A stretch of 64,000 bases of DNA from the NCBI GenBank assembly GCA_013239625.1, contig MU057342.1, positions 5,518,335 to 5,582,334 of the forward strand, given 5' to 3'. Position numbers and translations under genes: made by a program. Origin of the DNA: Lama guanicoe. Taxonomy: Eukaryota. Positions 15,498 to 49,224 of this stretch are shown here, piece by piece (within the stretch, counting starts at the first letter, position 1; each line of letters starts with the position of its first letter). The notes beneath the pieces are model-generated. The model had not been told where the DNA came from. It saw only the letters and a list, made by a program, of their open reading frames with translations, and searched no databases.

Positions 15498-15611
15498 GGG
15501 ATGTATCTCTTTTGCATATGGATAAAGCTTTGGGGGTTTAAGAGAATTCTAAGTGGGATGTATCTCTTTTGCATATGGATGAGGCTTTGGGGGTTTAAGA
15601 GAATTCTAAGT
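15498..15611. repeat. Tandem duplication 2 x 57 bp
   Basis: 15498-15554 and 15555-15611 are identical except 2 substitutions (gataaagc vs gatgaggc). Confidence 0.97.
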
Positions 15612-25190: not shown

Positions 25191-26448
25191 ACATTTTAAG
25201 ATCCTCTCTTTACGGAAATCAATCAAGATGGTGGAATAAGAGGATGTGGAGCTCACCTCCCCCCATGAACACATCAAAAATACATCTACATGTGGAACAA
25301 TTCCCACTGACAATTAACTGGAAAATGGTAGAAGGACTCCTGTACAATTAAGACTATAAGAAAATTACACACGTAATTTGGTAGGAAGGGAAGAAAAGCA
25401 ATCAGGTTAGGACCTGAGCCCCTAGGAGGGGACTGAGAGGAAAAGGGAGAATTCACAGATGGAGACCCACCCTGAGGAGTGAGTGGTGAGAGCCACAGAT
25501 TGGGCACCCCAGTCCTGGAGTCCTATGTGTGGGAGACCCCTTGGCTGCTTGGGACTAACAGGAGGGCTGTGGGAAGCCTGGATTTCACTATGAGGATGTA
25601 GGTGCACTGGCTTGCCACAGGGGCAGGCAGGATGGAAAGATTCTGCTCTAGAGAGGGCTGCCAGTTTTCCCACAACTGCCTGTACAGGTGCTCCAGCCCC
25701 AGCATGAGCCAGTGCTCCAGACCTGCTTACTCCATGTCACAGCATGGCACTGGATCTAGGGCTGCCCCGACCAGGGAGAAAACTCCATTGTGGGACACAG
25801 AGGTGACCTGGTCCAAGGGTAGAGCCTGGGTGGGGCAGTGGTGACCATTGTTGGCACTCCAGCAGTATATCAAAAGAAGCCTAGATCCCTAACAGCAGCC
25901 ACACTACCACAGCTCACCCCTGATACACATCAAGAGTCCACATGGGCCCCACCTGCCCTGTGGTATAGCTTCACAACAGGGTGGAGGTGGTGGAGGCTGG
26001 GGGCAATGGTTGGCTGTGAAGGACAAAGGAGATTTGCACATAGGCTTCATTTGAGTGGAGTGAGGGAAACAATTGTGGGTTCCTGCACAGGCAACTCATC
26101 AGAGGCAGCTTGAACCTCTGTCTGTGGCCAAATGAGCTGAGCGCCCATAGGGGCTCCACTTTCTTCAGCACTCTTCACTCTGGGTCAAATTTCCCCACGT
26201 AGGGAAGTCCCACCTCACACCCGGTTCCTGCTCTACTCCCTGAATCTCTATTCCCACCCCCTACTAAGGCGATAGCTGCCAGCACACCCTGAAGAAAGAT
26301 GTACCTTGCATCCATGTCAAATCTAGCTCTTCTACCAGGCATTGGGCATACGCAGTCTGTATAAGAATGCTCCCACATAATACCCCTTCAAGACTGCAAT
26401 ATGTAACTGTTTCCCCTAAATTCATGAAGGCAGAGAAAACTAAGCAAA

Positions 26449-27320
26449 ATGAAAAGGAAGAGGAATGGCTTTCAAATTAAAGAGTAAAAAAAAAACCCTG
26501 AAAAAAATAATAAAACAGAAATACATAATTAACCAGATAAAGAATTCAAAGCACTGGTAATAAAAATGTTAACTAAATTAGGTAAAAGAATATATGTACA
26601 CAGCGAAAATTTTAATAGGAACTAGAAAATATAAAAAAGACCCAATCAGAAATAAAGAATTCAATAGCTGAAATAAAAAACACACTAGAAGGAATGCATA
26701 GCAGACTAAGAGATACAGAAGAATGCATAAGGTATCTGGAAGACAGAATAAGGGAAATCAACCAATCAGAACAGCAAAAAGAAAAATAAACTAAAAAAAG
26801 AAACAAAACAAAAAAACACTCAAAGGCATCTCTGCGATAACATTAAATGCACCAACATTCACATTATAGAGGTCCCAGAAAGAGAAGAGAGAGAGACAGG
26901 GATTGAAAGTATTTGAGGAAATTATGGCTGAAAGCTTTCTAAACGTGAGACAGAAACAGATATCCAGGTGGAAGAAGTGCACAGAGTCCCAAACAAGATG
27001 AACCCAAACAGACCCACACTAAGACATATGATTTAAATGGTGAAAGTTAAAGGCAGCAAGAGAAAAAGAGAGTCATACACAGGGGAATCTCCATAAGGCT
27101 ATCAGTTGATTTCTCTGCAGAAACTTAGCAGGCCAGAAGGAAGTGGCATGATATATTCAAAGTCTTGAAAGGGAAAAACCTGGAAAGTAGGATACACTAC
27201 CCAGCAAGATTATCATTTAGAATTGGAGGAGAAATAAAGAACTTCTCAGACAAACAAAAATTATGTGAGATAATCAATACTAAACTTATCCTAAAAGAAA
27301 TGTTAAAGGGCCTTCTCTAA
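26449..27320 (+). pseudogene. Degenerate L1 ORF1p
   Basis: ccagataaagaattcaaag (PDKEFK), ataaggctatcagttgatttctctgcagaaac (IRLSVDFSAET), tacccagcaagattatcattt (YPARLSF); many stops and frameshifts. Confidence 0.85.
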
Positions 27321-27805
27321 GTGTAAAAGAAGTTAGAATCTACAGGAAAGGGGAAATCCCACTAGAAAAGGCAAATATATAGTAAGCACTGAGGATCAAT
27401 CACTTATTTAGCCAATGTGAAGATTAAAAGACAAAAAAAATTGTAAAATCAACCATAATTACAATAAACAGTGAAGGGATAAACATGAAGATGTAAAATA
27501 TTACATCAAAAATACAAAATGTGGAGGAAGCAGGTAAAAAATGTAGATCTTTTAGAATGTTTTTGAACTTAAATTACTACCAGTTTAAAACAAGTAGATA
27601 TAGTTATAGATCAAAATATATGAACCCCATGGTAACCACAAATTAAAAACCTGTAATAGATACACAAAAACTAAAAATAAAGGAAAACAAGCATATTACT
27701 AAAGAAAATTATCAAACCACAAGGGAAGAAACAAAGAAAAGGAAAAGGGAGAAAAGAAAAGAAATGAATTACAAAACAAGTTATAACTGGAAAACAAGTT
27801 ATAAA

Positions 27806-28978
27806 ATGGCAATAAGTACATACCTATCAATAATTATTTTAAATATCAATGGACTAAATGCTCCAATCAAAAGACTTAGGATGGCTGACTGAATAAAAAA
27901 GCAAGATCCAGCTATATGCTGCCTATAAGAGACTTACTTTAGAGCTAAAGACAGACACAAAGTGAGGGGATGAAAAAAAGATACATCATGCAAATGGAAA
28001 TGACAAGAAAGTGGGGGTAGCAATACTCATATCAAATAAAATACACTTTGAAAGAAAGACTATAACAAAAGACAAAGAAGGATATTATATAATGATAAAG
28101 GCTATTACACTCTTTAACATATATGCACCCAACTTAGGAGCACCTAAATATATAAAGCATATACTAACAAATATAAAGAGAAAAGCTGACAATAATACAA
28201 TAAAATTAGGGGACTTTAACCACCCCCATCAATGGACAGATCATCCAGACAGAAAACTAATAAGGCAACAGTGGTCTTAAATGACACAATAGACTAGTTG
28301 GACTTAACAGGTATCTACAGGACATTACAACCTACAGCAGCAGACTACATATTCTTTTCAAGTGCACATGAAAAGTTCTCCAAGACGGATCACATACTAG
28401 GCCACAAAACAAGCCCCAACAAATTTAAGAGGATAGAAATTGTATCAAGCACTTTTTCTGACCACAACAGTATGAAACTGCAGATCAACTACAGAAAGGA
28501 AAATGGGAAAAGAACAAATATGTGGAGACTAAACAACATGCTACTAAAATACCAATGAGTCAATGAAGAAATCAAAGAAGAAATCAGAAAATAACTTGAG
28601 ACAAATGAAAATGTAAACACTCCAATATCTATGAGTTACAACAAAGCAGTTCTAAGAGGGAAGTTTATAACAATATAGGCCTTCCTCAAGAAACAAGAAA
28701 AGTCTCAAACAACCTAACTAGTCATCTAAAAGAACTAAAATAAGAACAAACAAAACCCAAAGTCAGCAGAGGGAAGAAAATAATAAAGATCAGAGAGGAA
28801 GTAAATAAAATAGAGACCAAAAAAAGAAAGAAAGAAAAGAAAAGATCAATGAAACCAAGAGATGGATCTTTTGAAAAGATAAAATTTATAAACCTTCACC
28901 TAGGCTCACCAAGAAGAAAAGAGAGAGAACCCAAATAAACAAAATAAGAAACAAAAGAGAAGAAATAACAACTGATTC
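27806..28978 (+). pseudogene. Degenerate L1 ORF2p, APE-like endonuclease domain only
   Basis: ATG at 27806 (MAISTYLSII); ORF track peptides GVAILIS, NIYAPN, LGDFN, FSKTDHILGHK, FSDHNSMKL, WRLNNMLL. Confidence 0.93.
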
Positions 28979-34997: not shown

Positions 34998-35100
34998 GAA
35001 TAATACAAGGGCATTAAATTAGACCTCATTACCTAGCCAGTTGGGCCGTCCGGCTCTCCCGCACGTAATAATGAGGTCTGATTTATTGTGATCATTATTC
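34998..35100. repeat. Inverted repeat / long hairpin
   Basis: taaattagacctcatta (35015-35031) pairs with taatgaggtctgattta (35069-35085); outer gaataat/attattc and acaa/ttgt. Confidence 0.85.
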
Positions 35101-41028: not shown

Positions 41029-41764
41029 AATCTGTCTACAAGGCATTTGTGATTTGCCAAAGGTAAACAGTTGGTGTAGCAGTACCTCGGGCTCCTGCAT
41101 CCTGCTCCAGGATCCTTCCCTCTGCTCATAGGTGGCTCTGTCCCACAGAGTGGGTGGCTTCCAGCTTTTCTTGTCCCACCCATCTGTTCTTCTGGCCCAC
41201 TCTGAGCAGACAGGGACAGCTTCCTTTCTGTGCACACTAATGAGCTCTCTAAGCCCAGGCAGTGGCCCCGGGTGCCAGATTAGGGCCGCAGCGGGAGTCA
41301 GCGGGGAACACAGGCATCTCCTGCTTGTTTTGGGAAGGCACCAATACTAGACCACCCAAACTGCTTCTTAGCCAGGGCTCCATTTGGGAGCTCTGACATG
41401 GAGTTGGCAGCTTTCCTGCTCCTTCTCTACCTCCTGATAACTCCCCTGGGCCAAATGCTCAAGTACCATAAGCCTCTCAAAGCTCCAAGACAAGTGCATT
41501 CCCAGGGCCAACAACACAGCTCTCAGCCGGGGATGTGCATCCCACCCCCATTCGGTTAGGCAACAGCTCTGGCAACCTGACATAAAACAGTGTGCTGCCT
41601 GCTCCCCTTCTCCTGGTCCCCCTGCTCTCAGTCTCAGCTTGTGCAGGTTTCCACCAGGACTTCCCAGCTCCACAGCAAGGCCAGCAAGCTGGGAGCATCT
41701 CCACTCACTGTCATGGTTGGTGTTACTGCCGTGTGCAGATGTGATGGAGAGGGTGAGGATTCTG

Positions 41765-41990
41765 TGGCTTTAGAATCAGACAGTTTTGGATCTGAATCCC
41801 ATATATGCTGCTTGGGTGCTGCAGGACCTTAGGAAAAGCCACATTTCTCACCATGTTGGACTGTTTTTATCTGTACAATGGGGCTAATCCCACCCACTTC
41901 TCAGGGTTGTTATAAGGATTAAAGGTGATGCGGCACATGAGGTTCCAAGAACAGGACCTGGCACAAAACAGGCCCTCCACGGATGTGAAT
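41765..41990 (+). mobile_element. MIR SINE
   Basis: ggctttagaatcagacag...tgaatccc...atctgtacaatggggctaat...cagggttgttataaggattaaa. Confidence 0.85.
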
Positions 41991-42040: not shown

Positions 42041-42462
42041 TGCTCTCTCCCCTGCTTGGAGCCCTCAAGGGGTTAATCACACCACATCCACATGCAGAGG
42101 GATGAAAGGGGACATTATAACCAGGGCTCCTGGTGGCTTAAAGACAGAGGCTAACAGGGCCACTTCTCACAGAAAGTACAGGCACCAAACCCCGTGCTTA
42201 GCCTTGGAGACTTCTCTAAGAGCCCCTGACCATGTTTTCAGCCTCATCGTGAATTTCTCCCATTCGTGGTTCCTACTAATGCTGCGTGCTTCCCTATCCC
42301 TGCACCTTGGCATTCTGTTCTCTTTATATGGACCACCTTCCCTTCCAACCTTTGTCTAAAACTCAGCTCATTAAGGCTTCTCAATGAAGGCTTTTCTTAA
42401 CCTCTTTGGAGGATAGTGCTATATATAAATAAGCAATAACAATGGCTCCTCCTTTGGACCCT
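42041..42462 (+). repeat. Arm A of a long inverted duplication (partner 47386-47843)
   Basis: aligns along its length to the reverse complement of arm B; identical blocks of 23, 36, 23 and 22 nt. Confidence 0.95.
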
Positions 42463-43403
42463 GCAACATTTAAATTTTTAAAATCTTTTTCATGCCACTA
42501 ATTTTTTTGAATAATTAATACATATTTTTAATTACTAAAGTGAGATGTGCTGAACAAATTATGAGGCAAAGGAAAAGGGTTTCTGAAAAGTCTGTACAGA
42601 ATTTTCTTCCTTGAAGGTGCTAAAGATACACATTCTTGTGGCCGTTGATGTTGGTTTAGTTCTGCTCTGAATCACCATTGACACTCTCATTGTCTAAAAT
42701 ATCATGTACTTCATGCATTTATAAATAAATATCTTCAGATTATTTTTAAGTGTATTTGTAATGCTCAAAAATTGAATTCAATGCATTCCCTTGCTGAGAA
42801 TGATGCTATGTATAACTCAGAGAAGGAACATGATCTTCCCCTGTTGTTTTCTCTCTTTGGTCTTCCAGTCCAAAGTCAAGTGGAAATGGAAAGGCATCTC
42901 CTATTGATACTGCTTGCTTCTCTAATGACCAGGAAGTTCAGATATTTAAAGCAATTGCTTGATCCCTTTGATCAGTAGTGTACTCATGTTTAAGCACGTG
43001 TTTCCAGACTTTAGTTAATGACTTTTTCTTTGTGTTTACAAGATTATTTCTACAGCAAAATAAGAGAACGATTTATTTTTCTCTGTAAAAGTAACCTCAG
43101 GGTGATAGGAAAAATTATATATCTATCATGTTGCTGTGTTGTTTGCTTGTAGAAGCTGCAATTTGTTTTCCTCTTTTGAAATGTTTGCCTTCCTTATGAC
43201 AGAGAGTATTTGGAGATATATTATGTATGCATTTGCTGTATGCATATATTCTTGCCCTTGGGTAGAAATCCAGTGTCCATGGAAGAATTTGGCATTTGAT
43301 TGAAAGCCAGCAAGGCTGGTAGTTTTCCAACAGTTACAATTCATGGTTCTGCTTGAAGCAAATACCTCCAACTGTGGATAATAGACCTTCCTTGAGAATC
43401 TGA

Positions 43404-43711
43404 NNNNNNNNNNNNNNNNNNNNNNNNNNNNNNNNNNNNNNNNNNNNNNNNNNNNNNNNNNNNNNNNNNNNNNNNNNNNNNNNNNNNNNNNNNNNNNNNN
43501 NNNNNNNNNNNNNNNNNNNNNNNNNNNNNNNNNNNNNNNNNNNNNNNNNNNNNNNNNNNNNNNNNNNNNNNNNNNNNNNNNNNNNNNNNNNNNNNNNNNN
43601 NNNNNNNNNNNNNNNNNNNNNNNNNNNNNNNNNNNNNNNNNNNNNNNNNNNNNNNNNNNNNNNNNNNNNNNNNNNNNNNNNNNNNNNNNNNNNNNNNNNN
43701 NNNNNNNNNNN
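43404..43711. other. Assembly gap (308 N)
   Basis: run of N. Confidence 1.
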
Positions 43712-45005
43712 CCATTCTAGGATGACCCACTTGACCAGGTACAGCTTGTCTTTGGAAATAACCTAAATCTCTAAATAGAAATCTCAGGAAAGGTATAGCT
43801 ATGAGTGAGAGATTTCAGAAGAGACAAATAATGCAATTATGTTCCTTGCTGGTATGATGACTATATGCAGCTGAAATATTATGTTTTGAGGCACATTTTA
43901 AACTTTATTATTATAGCTGGTAATATCAACAGGAGAAAAATAATTATGCCTGCCAGTTGTGGGCATTCTGTTTATGTAGTATGTAATTTCTGCATTAACT
44001 TTTCTTTCTAAAACATGCTCTACACGATATATTTATCTCTTACATTATCCAGAATTTTAGGAATTCCGTAACTGGGTGCTATGGGGAAGAGAAAGACAAA
44101 ATGGGGAAGACTTAGAAAGGGGATAAATAAAGCTCGAGTCAGTTAAGGAAAATGTAGATTGTCTAGAAGAAAAGCCAGGAAAAAGTTTATCTTGCTCCAT
44201 TAATCCTCTACTCACTCTGTGAAATGAGAATGCACATATTGTTCTGGGGAGAAAAAAAGAAAACTAAACCATATGCCATTAATACATTTGACCAACTGTG
44301 ACATTTTTTAAATAAGGTTTTAACTGGTTTTATTACACCAACTGTGTAATTTCAAAATGACTCTGTCATCTATTATATCTCTTATAAACAAGTACTTTGT
44401 TTAACCAAGCCAATAATAACCTTCACAGACAGAGAAGGTTGGGATTTGAGAGAAGCAAATCCTCTGATTGTTTAGATAAAGGGAAAGAGATTCTTTGACT
44501 AGAAATACAAAAAAGAACATGATCTTGAAAAAAATGTTTTATCACACAATTCCCAATAGTTTGCTATTTCTTCTGTGGTGTGTGGGAGTGGGTGTCCAGT
44601 GCCTGAAGCCCTCCACAACATCAAGTGCACGCATCTTGGTTCCATACTCACAGACTAACTCCCAAAGGGACAACAAAGAAGGGCCGTGTGATCACTACCG
44701 GTGCCCTGCCAAGGGGGGCGTTTGCCAGAGAATGTGTGGTCAGGTGACTTACAGCGAGGCTTCTACCTCCTCTTTATGTCACTGCCTGGTCCGCCCACAC
44801 TGTGAGCAGCTGCCAATGGCAAGGAGACTGGAGGCAGAACAGAAGTCTCTTTGCCTCTTCACATCCTGTAAGATGCACCCAACACTCGCGTGGGTTCAAA
44901 GGAAAGGCTTCAGCTGCCGGCATGCTCTTCAGCTGCTGGCCTTCCTTCTTTGTGACGTAGTCTTTTAATTCGTTGTTATACTCATCATTTTTATTTCTTT
45001 CCAAG

Positions 45006-45127
45006 CACTTGGCTTTGTTCCTGCCTTCTGGAGAAGCTCAGGCTCCTTCATTCTGCAGGAGGGTGAAGGGATCCTCCTTCAGTGTGCTGTGTGCAACTCT
45101 CGTTTTCCTTGGTGTGTGGTATTTATG
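45006..45127 (+). other. Candidate spliced exon (122 nt), transcript unknown
   Basis: acceptor ctcatcatttttatttctttccaag| and donor ATG|gtaagc; no transcript evidence available. Confidence 0.3.
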
Positions 45128-45214
45128 GTAAGCGAGGCCGCAGTTGGCTCACTAGTGTCACTTTGGGCTGCTCCTTGGGGAACACTGGGGGCCTACACCC
45201 TGGGCCAGGTAGAA

Positions 45215-45385
45215 GAGCATGGGCTTTAGGATGGACAAAGCTAGGTTCCCATCCTGTTTCTATTTTCCATGTGACTGGAGGAAAGTAACCCTCTGAGCCT
45301 CCAACTTCATCTGTAAAATGGGAACAGTAATTCCAGCTTGACAGGACTGTAATCAGGATGATGTGAAGTCACATGCCTGAGATGT
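45215..45385 (+). mobile_element. MIR SINE
   Basis: agagcatgggctttagg...ctctgagcctccaacttcatctgtaaaatggga. Confidence 0.85.
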
Positions 45386-47385
45386 AGGAAAAACACTCCC
45401 TAGTTGAAAGGCCCCCTGGTGTCCACAAAAGGAAAACTATCCCATCAGGAACATCGTACCGTCTTGCCTTGTATCACACCATTGCAGCAGGAACCAAAGG
45501 CCATAGGATCAGGCCTCCAGGTCATCTGTGCTCTGTACTGTAACCTCCTTTCGACTGCTGGCACCCGATGATATTCCCCTCCTCTGACTCCAACTTGCAT
45601 TTGCAACTTCATCACATTCAGTCTGGTGACATCCAACACCACCTGGTGTTGTCTGATATCGCTGGAGTCACAAATACCGTCAAGCTGAAATTGACCTAAT
45701 TTACCTTCTGGGCTGATGCTTCCACTTTACAAGGGAAGTCCCGGAGACCCAAGAGGTTGTGTGACTTACTACAGACACCAAAGCTAGCTCGTGGCAAAGT
45801 TAGATCTCCAGATGCTCAAGCCACCTGAGTCTCACAGTGTTACTTAACTGCTGTGTTTTCGTGTGTGATTCCTACCCATGTCTCCACCCCTAACACACCC
45901 ACACCCACACCCACACCCACCCTTCAGATTTAAAGTTCCTTGAAGGCCTCTATGCTCTCAGGCTGCCCTGCATTTGAAGAGGATAACTGATGAAAACTTG
46001 CTGAACTGGGCCGGTTGAGGGAAAGAGGAATTCCTGGACATGTCAGCAAACATTTTATCAATAGCTTCTCCTTCAATTTTACAGACATACTGATCTGAAG
46101 AGCAATATGGATAAAATTTTTATGTAGGTAAAGGAGGAGAGTTATCCTGATCCAATGGCCACTGCATTCCCTCGAGAGCGCAGCTGTCCTTGTGAAGGTG
46201 GGAGCTGGCGTGTCTGAATGGCTGCACCCCATGAACGTTTCCTTACAGCACAAAGGACAGGGGATATTTAGTGTCTTTCCTGTACCTTGAGATGAACAGA
46301 ATCTCTTTACAACAGACTAATTCTCAAACTCAACTGATCAGCAGCTCCTAACCTGGTTAACTTTCAAACACGCTGGTCGGGGACAAAGGTACAGAACCAA
46401 ATGGGAGGCACTGCACATACTCACTGAGAAGAGGTGGATGCAGGCAGAGTGGAGGCCCATCTGCCAATCAGGGGAGAAGTGAAGCAGATGACACCTGACA
46501 CTGGGTGGAAAAGGAGGGGGGTTTCAAATACATATCGAATTCCGTTTTCACCAAGAGGTCAGCTTTAATCAAGTTCCCGGTGTAAATATAACCAATATAA
46601 ACCAAATAATGGAGGTTAAATGGCCATTCTGGAGGTCAGTGACTCTTGGTCAAGCTGGAAGATCTCACATCAAATGGACCAGCTGGAATTTACCTGAGGG
46701 CCTCCGTGCCCAACCATGAAACCGGAGCCCACACCAACTCTTCTGGCTGTGGATGGAGTGCAGAGCGATATGAATGTGGCAGGGCTGTCTGCTTTCAGCT
46801 CAGTGGTGGAAAACCAGATGCACTGCAGCCCAGGGTTTCCATAAACACAGGGTTGCAGTTTCTCTGTGGCTGAGAATCAAAGTGAATGTCTGCCGCAGGA
46901 GCTGATGCATCCTGCTCTCTGACGTCTCCAGGGAAGGACCCCTGGTAGTCCTGGGAGGGGATCCTTCTCCCACTTGGTTCTGGAAGCTGTGGTCCCTGAT
47001 GAACCCTTAGGCCACCCTTTATGAGATGTGCTATGAGATACGTTACAAGATCTTGCTGCAGAGAGAGCACCACATCTCAAACTAGAGGCAAGCCTGGCCT
47101 GTAAGCAGGGTTGACCTAATCCTGATCACCTGGGCATTTTTGAGCATGTCCTCCCCTCTTACTGCCCTTTTGCTTTTGTCTGGCCGTGTGGAGTGACACG
47201 CATGCAGCTTCATTTGTCTCTCTCTCCCATTGTGCCTGCTACCCAGTTTCCCAAACCGCTGAACTCAGCCCTCACACTGTCTACATGCTTTCTTGCCTTC
47301 GCGGAGTTTTTGGTGTTCTAAAGCGCTTCTCATAGTCGGTGCTCTTCAGGAGGTATGGAAGGAGCAGGAACCCCTTCTGGTTGGG

Positions 47386-47843
47386 AGGGTTCAAAGGAGA
47401 TGCTTTTTATTACTACTTATTTATAACACCAACCTACAAAGAAAGAGGCTAAGAAGGCATCTAATGAGAAGGCATCACTGTAAAGGCATCTAATGAGCTG
47501 AGTTTTACACAAAGGTTGGAAGGGGAAGTATTCCCGATAAAGCGAGTAAAGAGAACAGAATGCCAAGGAGCAGGGGTGGGGAAGCATGCAGCATCAGTGG
47601 GAACCACGAATGGGAGAAATTCCCGATGAGCCCCAAAACATGGTCTGGGGTCTGGTAGGGAAGTCTCCAATGCTGAGCAGAGGGGTTGGTGCCTGTACTT
47701 TCTGTGAGAAGTGGCCCTGTTGGCCTCTGTCTCCAAACCACCAGGTGCCTTTATAAACGTTCCCTTTCATCCCTCCGCATGTGGACATGGCGTGATCAGG
47801 GCTGGGGACCTGCAGGGGAGGGCTCCAAGCAGGGGAGAGAACA
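47386..47843 (-). repeat. Arm B of the long inverted duplication (partner 42041-42462)
   Basis: reverse complement aligns to arm A; carries a small internal duplication aaggcatctaatgag x2. Confidence 0.95.
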
Positions 47844-47984
47844 CACAATTGGAACTTCTCTGCTGTCTGAGCCTTATGTTCTATTTTTTTAAAACAAAAT
47901 ACATCAAAATATATACATTTCTTTCACTGCACACTTTGAAAAATGAAATTGTTGCTAAAGGGCTTTTATTTTTGTTCTTGCAAC

Positions 47985-48185
47985 ATGCTAATCAGTATGC
48001 TAAGAGATTTATGTGCCTCATTGCATTTAACCCACACAGCAATCCCACAAGGCAGATCCCATTCCCAATTTACAGATGGGAAAACTAAGACAGAGAGGTT
48101 AAGTACCTTGCTCAAGGTCATATGGTGGGAGATACAGATCGTACACTAAATCTGACATCAGTCTGTGTTCTTAACCATGACTCAT
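47985..48185 (-). mobile_element. MIR SINE
   Basis: cccaatttacagatgggaaaactaagacagagaggttaagtaccttgctcaaggtca. Confidence 0.88.
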
Positions 48186-49224
48186 AATGCTTCCTTAAAT
48201 GAAATCACTGAGCTAGTATGTTCTCAGCAAGTGTAGTTTTGGGGTCTCATTCATTTCTAACCAGATTCTTGGTAAATACATACTTTGCCATTTGCATGTC
48301 TTAGTCCTTTCTTTCAAAAATGGGTTTTTAATCAGAGCTGTGGAAAGACCCCCATGTATTTTACCCTGACGTAGATCTAAGTGAGAAGAACAGCGTGGAG
48401 CCAGTGTGTCAGGATGGCTAACCTTGAAGGGCATTGAAGAGTGTTCCATGGATACACCCCCAGCGATGCTCAGCAGCATCCAGGAATTGTGTGACTGTCC
48501 ATGTTGGTGCCTGGCTCATCACTGAACCATACATCCAGGAGGAGAGCATGGGACCCATGCTGCTGCTGCATTAGCTTTGTGTCTATCTAGTTCAACACAA
48601 AGCGGCAAGGGCAGCGGAAGGCTACTCCCATGAAACGCACCTCTTGTCATCTTTATGGGCACGCCAGACCATAAACCCGCAGACAGATGACAGGAATAAC
48701 CACATTATCTCTTCCAAGGCAAAAAAGAGAGGAGGGTGAATGTAGAGATTGATGTACAAAAGCGCTAGTCTAAATAAACAATCTACATACATTTGCATTT
48801 GCATGGGAGCATTGTTATAAAATGTGGTCTTCATTAAAGAGAGGCTGGTGAGGTACCTTCCGAGGGCCTGACACGTGTGATTTCTGATCATCTGGCTCCC
48901 TTGTCTCTTTAAAGTCAAATCCTGTACATGGAATATTTGCTGTGTCTAAATAATGCAACAAAATCACCTGAAATGAAAGCTGCTGAAATCTATACCAGGT
49001 AGATATTATATATTTTGTATAATTAACAGGGATTAAAGATGTATATTCACATGCGTAATTTCCAAGAGGCTTAGAAACAAATGTGTCCTGTTGAGATGTT
49101 TGGGAAAAATGATTTAAAGGGGGTATCCTGGTTAAGAACTAATTGTTAACTCACTGATCTCAAAGGAAAGTGGAGCAAAGGATAATCCAGAGAGGCCTAA
49201 AAGAGCTTCCTTAACAGGAAGATG

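What the first reader, a model, noticed from the sequence alone, without database searches (positions are those of the whole stretch)
42041..47843. ~430-460 bp inverted duplication enclosing a 4.9-kb segment
Seen: 42041-42462 aligns end to end with the reverse complement of 47386-47843 (roughly 80-85% by eye). Perfect blocks include aacagggccacttctcacagaaagtacaggcaccaa (36 nt), gaatttctcccattcgtggttcc (23 nt), tctctcccctgcttggagccctc (23 nt) and ccttggcattctgttctcttta (22 nt). I do not recognise it as a TE family. It contains an L2-like stretch (aaaactcagctca...aaggcttttcttaacc), which suggests duplicated local sequence rather than two independent insertions. Inference: it is either the scar of an old staggered-break inversion or template switch, or a reverse-complementary pair able to form long dsRNA if the region is transcribed (ADAR substrate, back-splicing or exon loop-out). 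It could also drive recurrent inversion of the 4.9-kb spacer.
Basis: partly seen in the sequence, partly recalled or inferred. Interest (0 to 1): 0.7.

Follow-up and report, generated by a model that had tools for sequence, protein, structure and literature searches.

The report
Old inverted copy downstream of miR-148a
A 420-460-base piece of non-coding mammalian DNA is present a second time, upside down, 4.9 kb away in a gene-poor stretch; it is real but likely an ordinary, decaying DNA-repair copying scar of a common kind rather than a working RNA or inversion device.

Summary
The inverted pair is real: 42041-42462 against the reverse complement of 47386-47843, 76.5% with gaps, 85% without (61 of 416 columns differ). 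Two searches of the own 2.05-Gb genome found only these two copies. The pair lies in a gene-poor stretch, 250 kb past a mir-148 hairpin and 400 kb before a cytochrome c gene (likely the MIR148A-NPVF desert). New here: just inside the right arm sits a 25-nt inverted copy (47346-47370) of a second nearby piece (41413-41437), so the right copy looks like a two-donor chimera. Size, distance and chimerism fit proximal repair-mediated 'inverted duplications', a common class in mammals (my odds 0.66); a true inversion scar is the main rival (0.17). No sign of function: no strand bias for G-U pairs, perfect blocks near chance, the right arm no slower than its flank in a relative about 3% diverged (12 of 358 against 8 of 334), no exon candidate above background, no usable evidence of transcription or editing. 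No outgroup genome was available, so the empty site and spacer orientation are untested. One contig of the relative may switch arms at the 36-nt block; unresolved.

The parts
42041..42462 (+). Left arm; likely the donor (original) copy
   Evidence: donor status inferred (weak)
47386..47843 (-). Right arm, inverted copy, 36 nt longer; likely the inserted (acceptor) copy
   Evidence: acceptor status inferred
42153..42188 (+). Longest perfect block (36 nt), left copy
47686..47721 (-). Longest perfect block (36 nt), right copy; two-copy also in run X12
41413..41437 (+). Second short donor candidate, 604 nt outside the left arm
   Evidence: (I6)
47346..47370 (-). 25-nt inverted match (23 of 25) to 41413-41437, just inside the right arm
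   Evidence: 0 of 1500 random 4-kb targets reach the score with the same probe; 1.1% of 1500 random probe/neighbourhood pairs do
47371..47385 (.). 9-15 nt between the two copied pieces; likely filler (about 6 nt may still be arm homology)
   Evidence: read directly; filler status inferred
42293..42410 (+). Degenerate L2-like fragment inside the left arm
   Evidence: E 6e-4
42463..47345 (.). Spacer: non-coding, AT-rich in its left 2 kb; orientation relative to the ancestor unknown
41760..41990 (+). MIR-like fragment between the two donor candidates (family name recalled; only its 3' tail was hit by a local profile, 41942-41983)

Best explanation
The two arms are a single-copy sequence and its inverted duplicate 4.9 kb apart, likely made in one old double-strand-break repair or template-switch event and likely decaying neutrally since. 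Inferred mechanism: a break near 47345/47844 was repaired by synthesis-dependent strand annealing or replication template switching. One end copied about 430-460 nt from 42041-42462, the other copied about 25 nt from 41413-41437, and the two new strands were joined with a 9-15-nt filler, giving a two-donor insert in inverted orientation while the spacer kept its orientation. Shown: two copies only, their divergence, the adjacent 25-nt second match, the gene-poor context, the lack of a constraint signal. Inferred: which copy is the insert, the repair pathway, the unflipped spacer, neutrality, and the age (K2P 0.14-0.165 between arms, about 4-7 times the distance to the relative in run X15).
For: Two copies in the genome and in 664 kb of surroundings. 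The second 25-nt match adjoins the right arm: score 42 against shuffles 25.6 +/- 3, maximum 35 of 100; 0 of 1500 random targets and 1.1% of 1500 random neighbourhood pairs reach it. Pace et al. (PMC2671141) describe proximal repair duplications within 5 kb, up to 619 bp, 20 of 1,136 being chimeras of two donors, in five cases with the second donor 289-3,432 bp from the first; here 604 bp. Sudmant et al. (PMC4617611): 54% of 229 characterised inversion sites were inverted duplications, nearly all under 1 kb and within 5 kb. Frith and Khan (PMC5829575, Table 2): 21 opposite-strand non-tandem duplications among 166 rearrangements, while inversion with deletion and duplication was a unique case. 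Neutral-looking decay: 35 transitions, 26 transversions, 12 gap events; G-U-compatible changes 12 (+ strand) against 23 (- strand), p 0.09, and 10 against 8 in the core; longest block p 0.06-0.21. In run X15 the right arm differs at 12 of 358 nt and the outer flank at 8 of 334 (Fisher p 0.50); of 6 listed changes in aligned columns 2 break a pair, 2 equal the left-arm letter, 2 are a third letter. No poly(A) or target-site duplication at either copy. Six other two-copy, non-tandem local pairs (all direct) lie in the 1.264 Mb fetched.
Against: No outgroup, so the empty site is not seen and an inversion gives nearly the same picture. Donor polarity is weak: L2-likeness beyond the left inner junction p 0.04-0.07 and none beyond the right (p 0.94-0.98), but one single L2 copy aligned across the right inner junction at E 0.035, which points the other way and would make the 25-nt piece native sequence. 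The 25-nt match is pyrimidine-rich and its 1.1% is not corrected for the four junctions looked at. Four blocks of 22 nt or more are somewhat clustered over the whole arm (p 0.007, or 0.04 with adjacent mismatches merged; 0.06-0.17 in the core), which leaves room for some past gene conversion. Size (460-500 nt) and distance (4.9 kb) are in the upper tail of the published class. The constraint test rests on one contig of one relative and on the right arm only. No clear microhomology is left at the junctions.
Confidence: 0.66

Rival explanations
1. Scar of a real 4.9-kb inversion made by staggered breaks or replication template switching. The right arm's outer junction and the left arm's inner junction would be native, and the 25-nt piece would be the relic of the duplication at the other breakpoint.
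For: Ranz et al. (PMC1885836): 17 of 29 Drosophila inversions have inverted duplications at the breakpoints, median 321 bp; applied to mammals in PMC2817401. The order seen here (short piece outside the left arm, its inverted match inside the right arm) is the permuted order that two staggered breaks predict (inference). The weak L2 continuity at the left inner junction fits too.
Against: It needs the 603 nt between the two left pieces to be lost from the inverted copy: no similarity beyond the 25 nt. In human long-read surveys this pattern is rarer than inserted inverted copies (PMC5829575, PMC4617611). Strand skews of the spacer are inside the noise (TA skew 0.037, SD 0.055) and do not discriminate.
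Confidence: 0.17
2. Whatever its origin, the pair now acts as a long-range RNA duplex in a non-coding transcript (ADAR substrate, loop-out or back-splicing of a spacer exon) and is kept for that.
For: Predicted duplex -594 kcal/mol on the + strand and -614 on the - strand, against -891 for a perfect arm; stronger than 5 of 5 local repeat pairs that I picked for comparison (-247 to -528). The human region holds the lincRNA AC003090.1 about 100 kb from an enhancer that lies 95 kb from MIR148A (PMC6817687); by interpolation the element may fall inside its span (recalled coordinates, inference). Chen et al. (PMC5398296, abstract) argue that some expressed intergenic inverted duplicates are functional.
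Against: No wobble bias, no slowdown. Best + strand exon candidate in the spacer scores 11.1 against a background median of 11.9 (one - strand candidate scores 14.9, near the 95th percentile). In X15 both A>G (3) and T>C (7) occur, in the arm and in the flank, so no strand-specific editing signature; its contigs have flat depth near 5.5, like background DNA. 27 other inverted repeat pairs within 8 kb of each other lie in the 1.264 Mb, so pairing potential is not special.
Confidence: 0.07
3. The arms still drive inversion of the spacer by recombination in the 36-nt perfect block, so orientation differs between species or individuals.
For: The X15 contig over 47388-47745 has 12 differences, of which 5 are not listed (likely near its ends); four arm-distinguishing sites lie in its last 24 nt (47722, 47733, 47734, 47737). 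About 2 end differences would be expected (P of 5 or more 0.053). The contig may therefore switch to left-arm letters after the block.
Against: The letters were not shown. A low-depth assembly chimera or a reverse-transcription switch would look the same, and plain divergence is not excluded. No strand-changing joint was reported in 4 of 4 runs laid. In X12 the outer right arm runs into the right flank with 0 differences over 428 nt. 85% identity is low for ectopic recombination (established knowledge, recalled).
Confidence: 0.06
4. The arms are two independent insertions of a rare, unrecognised transposon or of L2.
For: An L2-like stretch lies in the left arm. The genome search skips very common words and scores only the best candidates.
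Against: No third copy in the genome or in 664 kb at word size 7; no third hit better than E 0.2 for the junction regions in 1.264 Mb; the L2-like part is about a quarter of the arm; no TSD, poly(A) or terminal repeats.
Confidence: 0.03

Closest known systems
Proximal repair-mediated duplications (RD), Pace et al. 2009, PMC2671141 (parts 1-3 of 8 and passages read)
   Same: Two copies only, donor and acceptor within 5 kb, under 619 bp, no poly(A) or TSD, apparent two-donor chimera with the second donor within 289-3,432 bp, short filler, neutral divergence.
   Different: Their cases were defined by an interrupted transposon and outgroup empty sites; neither is shown here. This one is older and near the upper size and distance limits.
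'Inverted Dup' structural variants, Sudmant et al. 2015, PMC4617611 (passages read)
   Same: Duplicated stretch under 1 kb, inverted, within 5 kb of the other copy, not retrotransposed.
   Different: Those are polymorphic and near-identical; this one is 15% diverged and present in at least one other animal (X12) and a relative (X15, right arm).
Opposite-strand non-tandem and double duplications, Frith and Khan 2018, PMC5829575 (passages read)
   Same: Local inverted copy; two non-adjacent segments copied and placed side by side.
   Different: In their two double duplications the insert lies between the sources; here both sources lie on one side.
Staggered-break inversions with inverted duplications, Ranz et al. 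2007, PMC1885836; PMC2817401 (passages read)
   Same: Inverted duplicates of unique sequence, a few hundred bp, about 88% alike, bracketing a segment.
   Different: Requires the enclosed segment to be inverted against an outgroup, which is untested here.
Intergenic inverted duplicates, Chen et al. 2017, PMC5398296 (abstract and outline only)
   Same: Intergenic reverse-complementary pair able to form a duplex if transcribed.
   Different: Expression is not shown here and the spacer is 4.9 kb.

Membership tests
Proximal repair-mediated duplication / Inverted Dup | Exactly two genomic copies | tested here: met
   (search skips very common words)
Proximal repair-mediated duplication / Inverted Dup | Under about 0.6-1 kb and within 5 kb of the donor | tested here: met
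   422/458 nt, 4,924 nt apart
Proximal repair-mediated duplication / Inverted Dup | No retrotransposition marks (poly(A), TSD) | tested here: met
   best direct repeats near the ends are 6 nt and off the junctions
Proximal repair-mediated duplication / Inverted Dup | Repair marks at junctions (microhomology, filler, second donor) | tested here: inconclusive
   second 25-nt donor and 9-15-nt filler candidates; microhomology not readable at this divergence
Proximal repair-mediated duplication / Inverted Dup | Empty site and collinear spacer in an outgroup | not testable with these tools
   no relatives held for G000; runs found are all close relatives
Staggered-break inversion | Enclosed segment inverted against an outgroup | not testable with these tools
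   no outgroup; skew test uninformative
Staggered-break inversion | Inverted duplication of unique sequence at the breakpoints | tested here: met
Functional RNA duplex (RCM / ADAR substrate) | Both arms in one transcript | tested here: inconclusive
   only contigs, right arm only, flat depth
Functional RNA duplex (RCM / ADAR substrate) | Strand-specific A-to-G clusters | tested here: inconclusive
   none seen, but contigs drop rare variants and there is no matched DNA
Functional RNA duplex (RCM / ADAR substrate) | Selection for pairing (wobble bias, slowdown, compensation) | tested here: not met
   low power, one relative
Dispersed transposon family | Many similarly diverged copies | tested here: not met
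Known structured RNA family | Rfam match | tested here: not met
   0 matches at gathering score in the window

The most novel reading that the evidence does not exclude
A repair accident placed a 450-bp reverse-complementary pair around 4.9 kb of the MIR148A-NPVF regulatory desert in one mammalian lineage, and it now folds a lincRNA precursor (editing, loop-out or circle) or lets the enclosed segment flip through its 36-nt perfect block, as one contig of a relative may hint.
Probability: 0.1. Interest if true: 0.55.

Novelty: new member of a known kind. Interest (0 to 1): 0.18.

Why it matters
As most likely read, it matters little: one more fixed, old example of a common repair-duplication class, with a neat two-donor junction that could serve as a lineage marker. 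It would matter more if the spacer proved inverted or still flipping, or if the pair were edited or circularised, because the stretch is the likely counterpart of a human regulatory desert linked to adipogenesis and endometriosis (PMC6817687) and would show a lineage-specific structure acting on it.

Tried and rejected
Pfam scan of whole six-frame translations: not run, frames with stops are not accepted. Home-made exon scans of 264 kb and 664 kb: no convincing coding exon; the scans are crude and were not benchmarked. Rfam: 0 hits in the window. L2 profiles were too weak or drifted towards MIR and did not hit the arm at a useful level; only one search did. Strand-skew test of spacer orientation: noise. 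Single-sequence nhmmer of the four junction regions and the second donor: best E 0.21. RNA runs: X15 share 0.42 of words is what 2.4-3.4% divergence at near-full cover gives (0.34-0.47), so it is no sign of locus-specific transcription; X17 and X18 each gave one short contig in the spacer (same study, no loose ends there); holes prove nothing because a filter drops contigs, even in DNA run X12. X19-X24 (small or no share) are no evidence. A scan of metagenome contigs for an outgroup was considered and not run (very low chance of a host contig across a junction). Paper searches (non-repetitive reverse-complementary pairs with circular RNA or ADAR, all terms required) returned 0 papers; I did not search for this locus by species name, so I make no claim that it is unpublished. 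PMC3961182 (passages) gave no identity threshold and is not relied on. Earlier-finding look-ups were empty. No supplements were read; Table S1 of PMC2671141 and Extended Data Fig. 10 of PMC4617611 may bear on the class comparison.
Full report
Observation. The window's only long self-match is the inverted pair 42041-42462 / 47843-47386: 464 columns, 76.5%, E 6e-92. Without gaps 61 of 416 columns differ (35 transitions, 26 transversions), with 12 gap events; K2P 0.165 (SE 0.022), 0.139 in the 254-column core. Both arms, searched against the own genome of 2.05 Gb, return only each other. No Rfam family lies in the window. A profile of 40 local L2-like copies hits 42293-42410 at E 6e-4 and gave no hit in the right arm.

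Setting. The window is G000:C12518:5518335-5582334. Crude exon scans of 264 and 664 kb found no convincing coding exon. A mir-148 family hairpin lies about 250 kb before the element on the + strand, a Chromo_shadow exon 193 kb before that and a cytochrome c gene about 400 kb after the element. That order matches the human CBX3 - MIR148A - NPVF - CYCS interval (gene order partly from PMC6817687, passages; names and CYCS position recalled). The element sits 38% of the way from the hairpin to cytochrome c. In human this desert holds enhancers and the lincRNA AC003090.1 (PMC6817687); whether the element falls inside an orthologous transcript is inference only. Genome size, tRNA-Ala-like short elements and earlier notes on this genome suggest a camelid; this is inference.

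A second copied piece. Just inside the right arm, 47346-47370 matches 41413-41437 in inverted orientation at 23 of 25. It scores 42 against 25.6 +/- 3 for shuffles (maximum 35 of 100). The same 100-nt probe reaches that level in 0 of 1500 random 4-kb targets, and 1.1% of 1500 random probe/neighbourhood pairs do (not corrected for four junctions). Nothing else of the 603 nt between the two left pieces is found on the right. The right side therefore reads: 25-nt copy, 9-15 nt filler, 458-nt copy. No poly(A) or target-site duplication is seen. Which copy is native is weakly indicated: L2-likeness continues past the left inner junction at p 0.04-0.07 and not past the right, but one single L2 copy aligned across the right inner junction at E 0.035, which argues the other way.

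Is it maintained? Changes compatible with G-U pairs are 12 for a + strand transcript and 23 for a - strand transcript (p 0.09), 10 and 8 in the core. The 36-nt block has p 0.06-0.21 under random placement; four blocks of 22 nt or more have p 0.007-0.04 over the whole arm and 0.06-0.17 in the core, so mild conversion is not excluded. Of 24 runs listed, four were laid with a result, on 46650-48200. X12 (DNA) shows the 36-nt block as a double-depth contig and the outer right arm joined to its flank with 0 differences in 428 nt. X15 (RNA library, a relative) differs at 12 of 358 nt in the arm and 8 of 334 in the flank (p 0.50). Of its 7 listed arm changes, 2 break a pair, 2 equal the left-arm letter, 2 are a third letter and 1 is in a gap column, as neutral drift predicts. 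Its A>G and T>C changes occur in arm and flank alike and its depth is flat, so neither editing nor transcription is shown. No joint was reported in any run. Five X15 differences are unlisted, and four arm-distinguishing sites lie in the contig's last 24 nt, so an arm switch at the 36-nt block (real or artefact) cannot be excluded. The arms could form a strong duplex (-594 kcal/mol; stronger than 5 of 5 repeat pairs that I picked), but no spacer exon candidate stands above background on the + strand.

Base rate. In the 1.264 Mb fetched, 72 matches of 60 nt or more lie within 8 kb of each other; 11 are two-copy, 7 of these non-tandem (this one inverted, 6 direct; some may be low-copy repeats), and 27 other inverted matches join multi-copy repeats. 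Earlier notes on this genome list several similar old inverted duplications (unchecked AI notes, not support).

Age. The arm-to-arm distance is about 4-7 times the distance to X15. With recalled neutral branch lengths for camelids (about 0.11 substitutions per site back to the cetartiodactyl root) the 0.07-0.08 per arm would place the event on the camelid stem, some tens of millions of years ago, and predicts a single arm in pig, cattle and human. This is inference from recalled numbers.

Mechanism and comparison. The best fit is a proximal repair-mediated inverted duplication with two donors (0.66). Pace et al. (PMC2671141, parts 1-3 of 8 and passages) found 824 such duplications within 5 kb, up to 619 bp, and 20 two-donor chimeras among 1,136, and 202 cases in cow. 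Sudmant et al. (PMC4617611, passages) found 54% of characterised inversion sites to be inverted duplications under 1 kb within 5 kb. Frith and Khan (PMC5829575, passages) counted 21 opposite-strand local duplications among 166 events. The staggered-break inversion of Ranz et al. (PMC1885836, passages; PMC2817401, passages) gives almost the same picture and remains the main rival (0.17); only an outgroup separates them. A maintained RNA duplex (0.07), recurrent inversion (0.06) and a rare transposon (0.03) are less likely. It works like a repair duplication; membership lacks the empty-site test.

Verdict. Real, single-copy, old, and most likely ordinary. New member of a known kind; interest 0.18. 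The most novel reading not excluded (a lineage-specific RNA fold or flipping segment in the MIR148A desert) has probability about 0.10.

Noticed in passing
L052:1608-1680 (+): mir-148/152 family hairpin (Rfam RF00248, 84 bits) beside a CpG island; likely MIR148A by synteny.
   Followed up: partly
G000:C12518:5116574-5116669 (-) and 5964795-5964965 (+): Chromo_shadow exon and cytochrome c exon bracketing the region; likely CBX3 and CYCS.
   Followed up: partly
L017 (about 41-45 kb before the window start): 2.15-kb tandem duplication at 97.8% carrying two tRNA-Ala-like elements; a young duplication or an assembly artefact.
   Followed up: no
about 598-602 kb and 608-612 kb past the window start (L110-L112 region): Two 2.0-2.2-kb tandem duplications at 99.7-99.8% identity; possibly haplotype-duplication artefacts.
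   Followed up: no
window 15498-15611: 57-nt tandem duplication, 96% identical.
   Followed up: no
window 35018-35082: Short inverted repeat (about 14-nt arms, one mismatch) in a TAAT-rich stretch, seen by eye; may be an ancient conserved element.
   Followed up: no
window 47005-47311: Runs X17 and X18 (one study, RNA by guess) each gave a single short contig here, 2% diverged, ending at 47308 and 47311; a filter may explain the pattern.
   Followed up: partly
window 47388-48200: Listed transitions in X15 are 10 A/T-to-G/C against 2 G/C-to-A/T (p 0.04), in arm and flank alike; a lineage bias rather than editing.
   Followed up: partly
window about 25200-28960: Old, broken L1-like element with 5' end and ORF fragments (family name recalled).
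   Followed up: no
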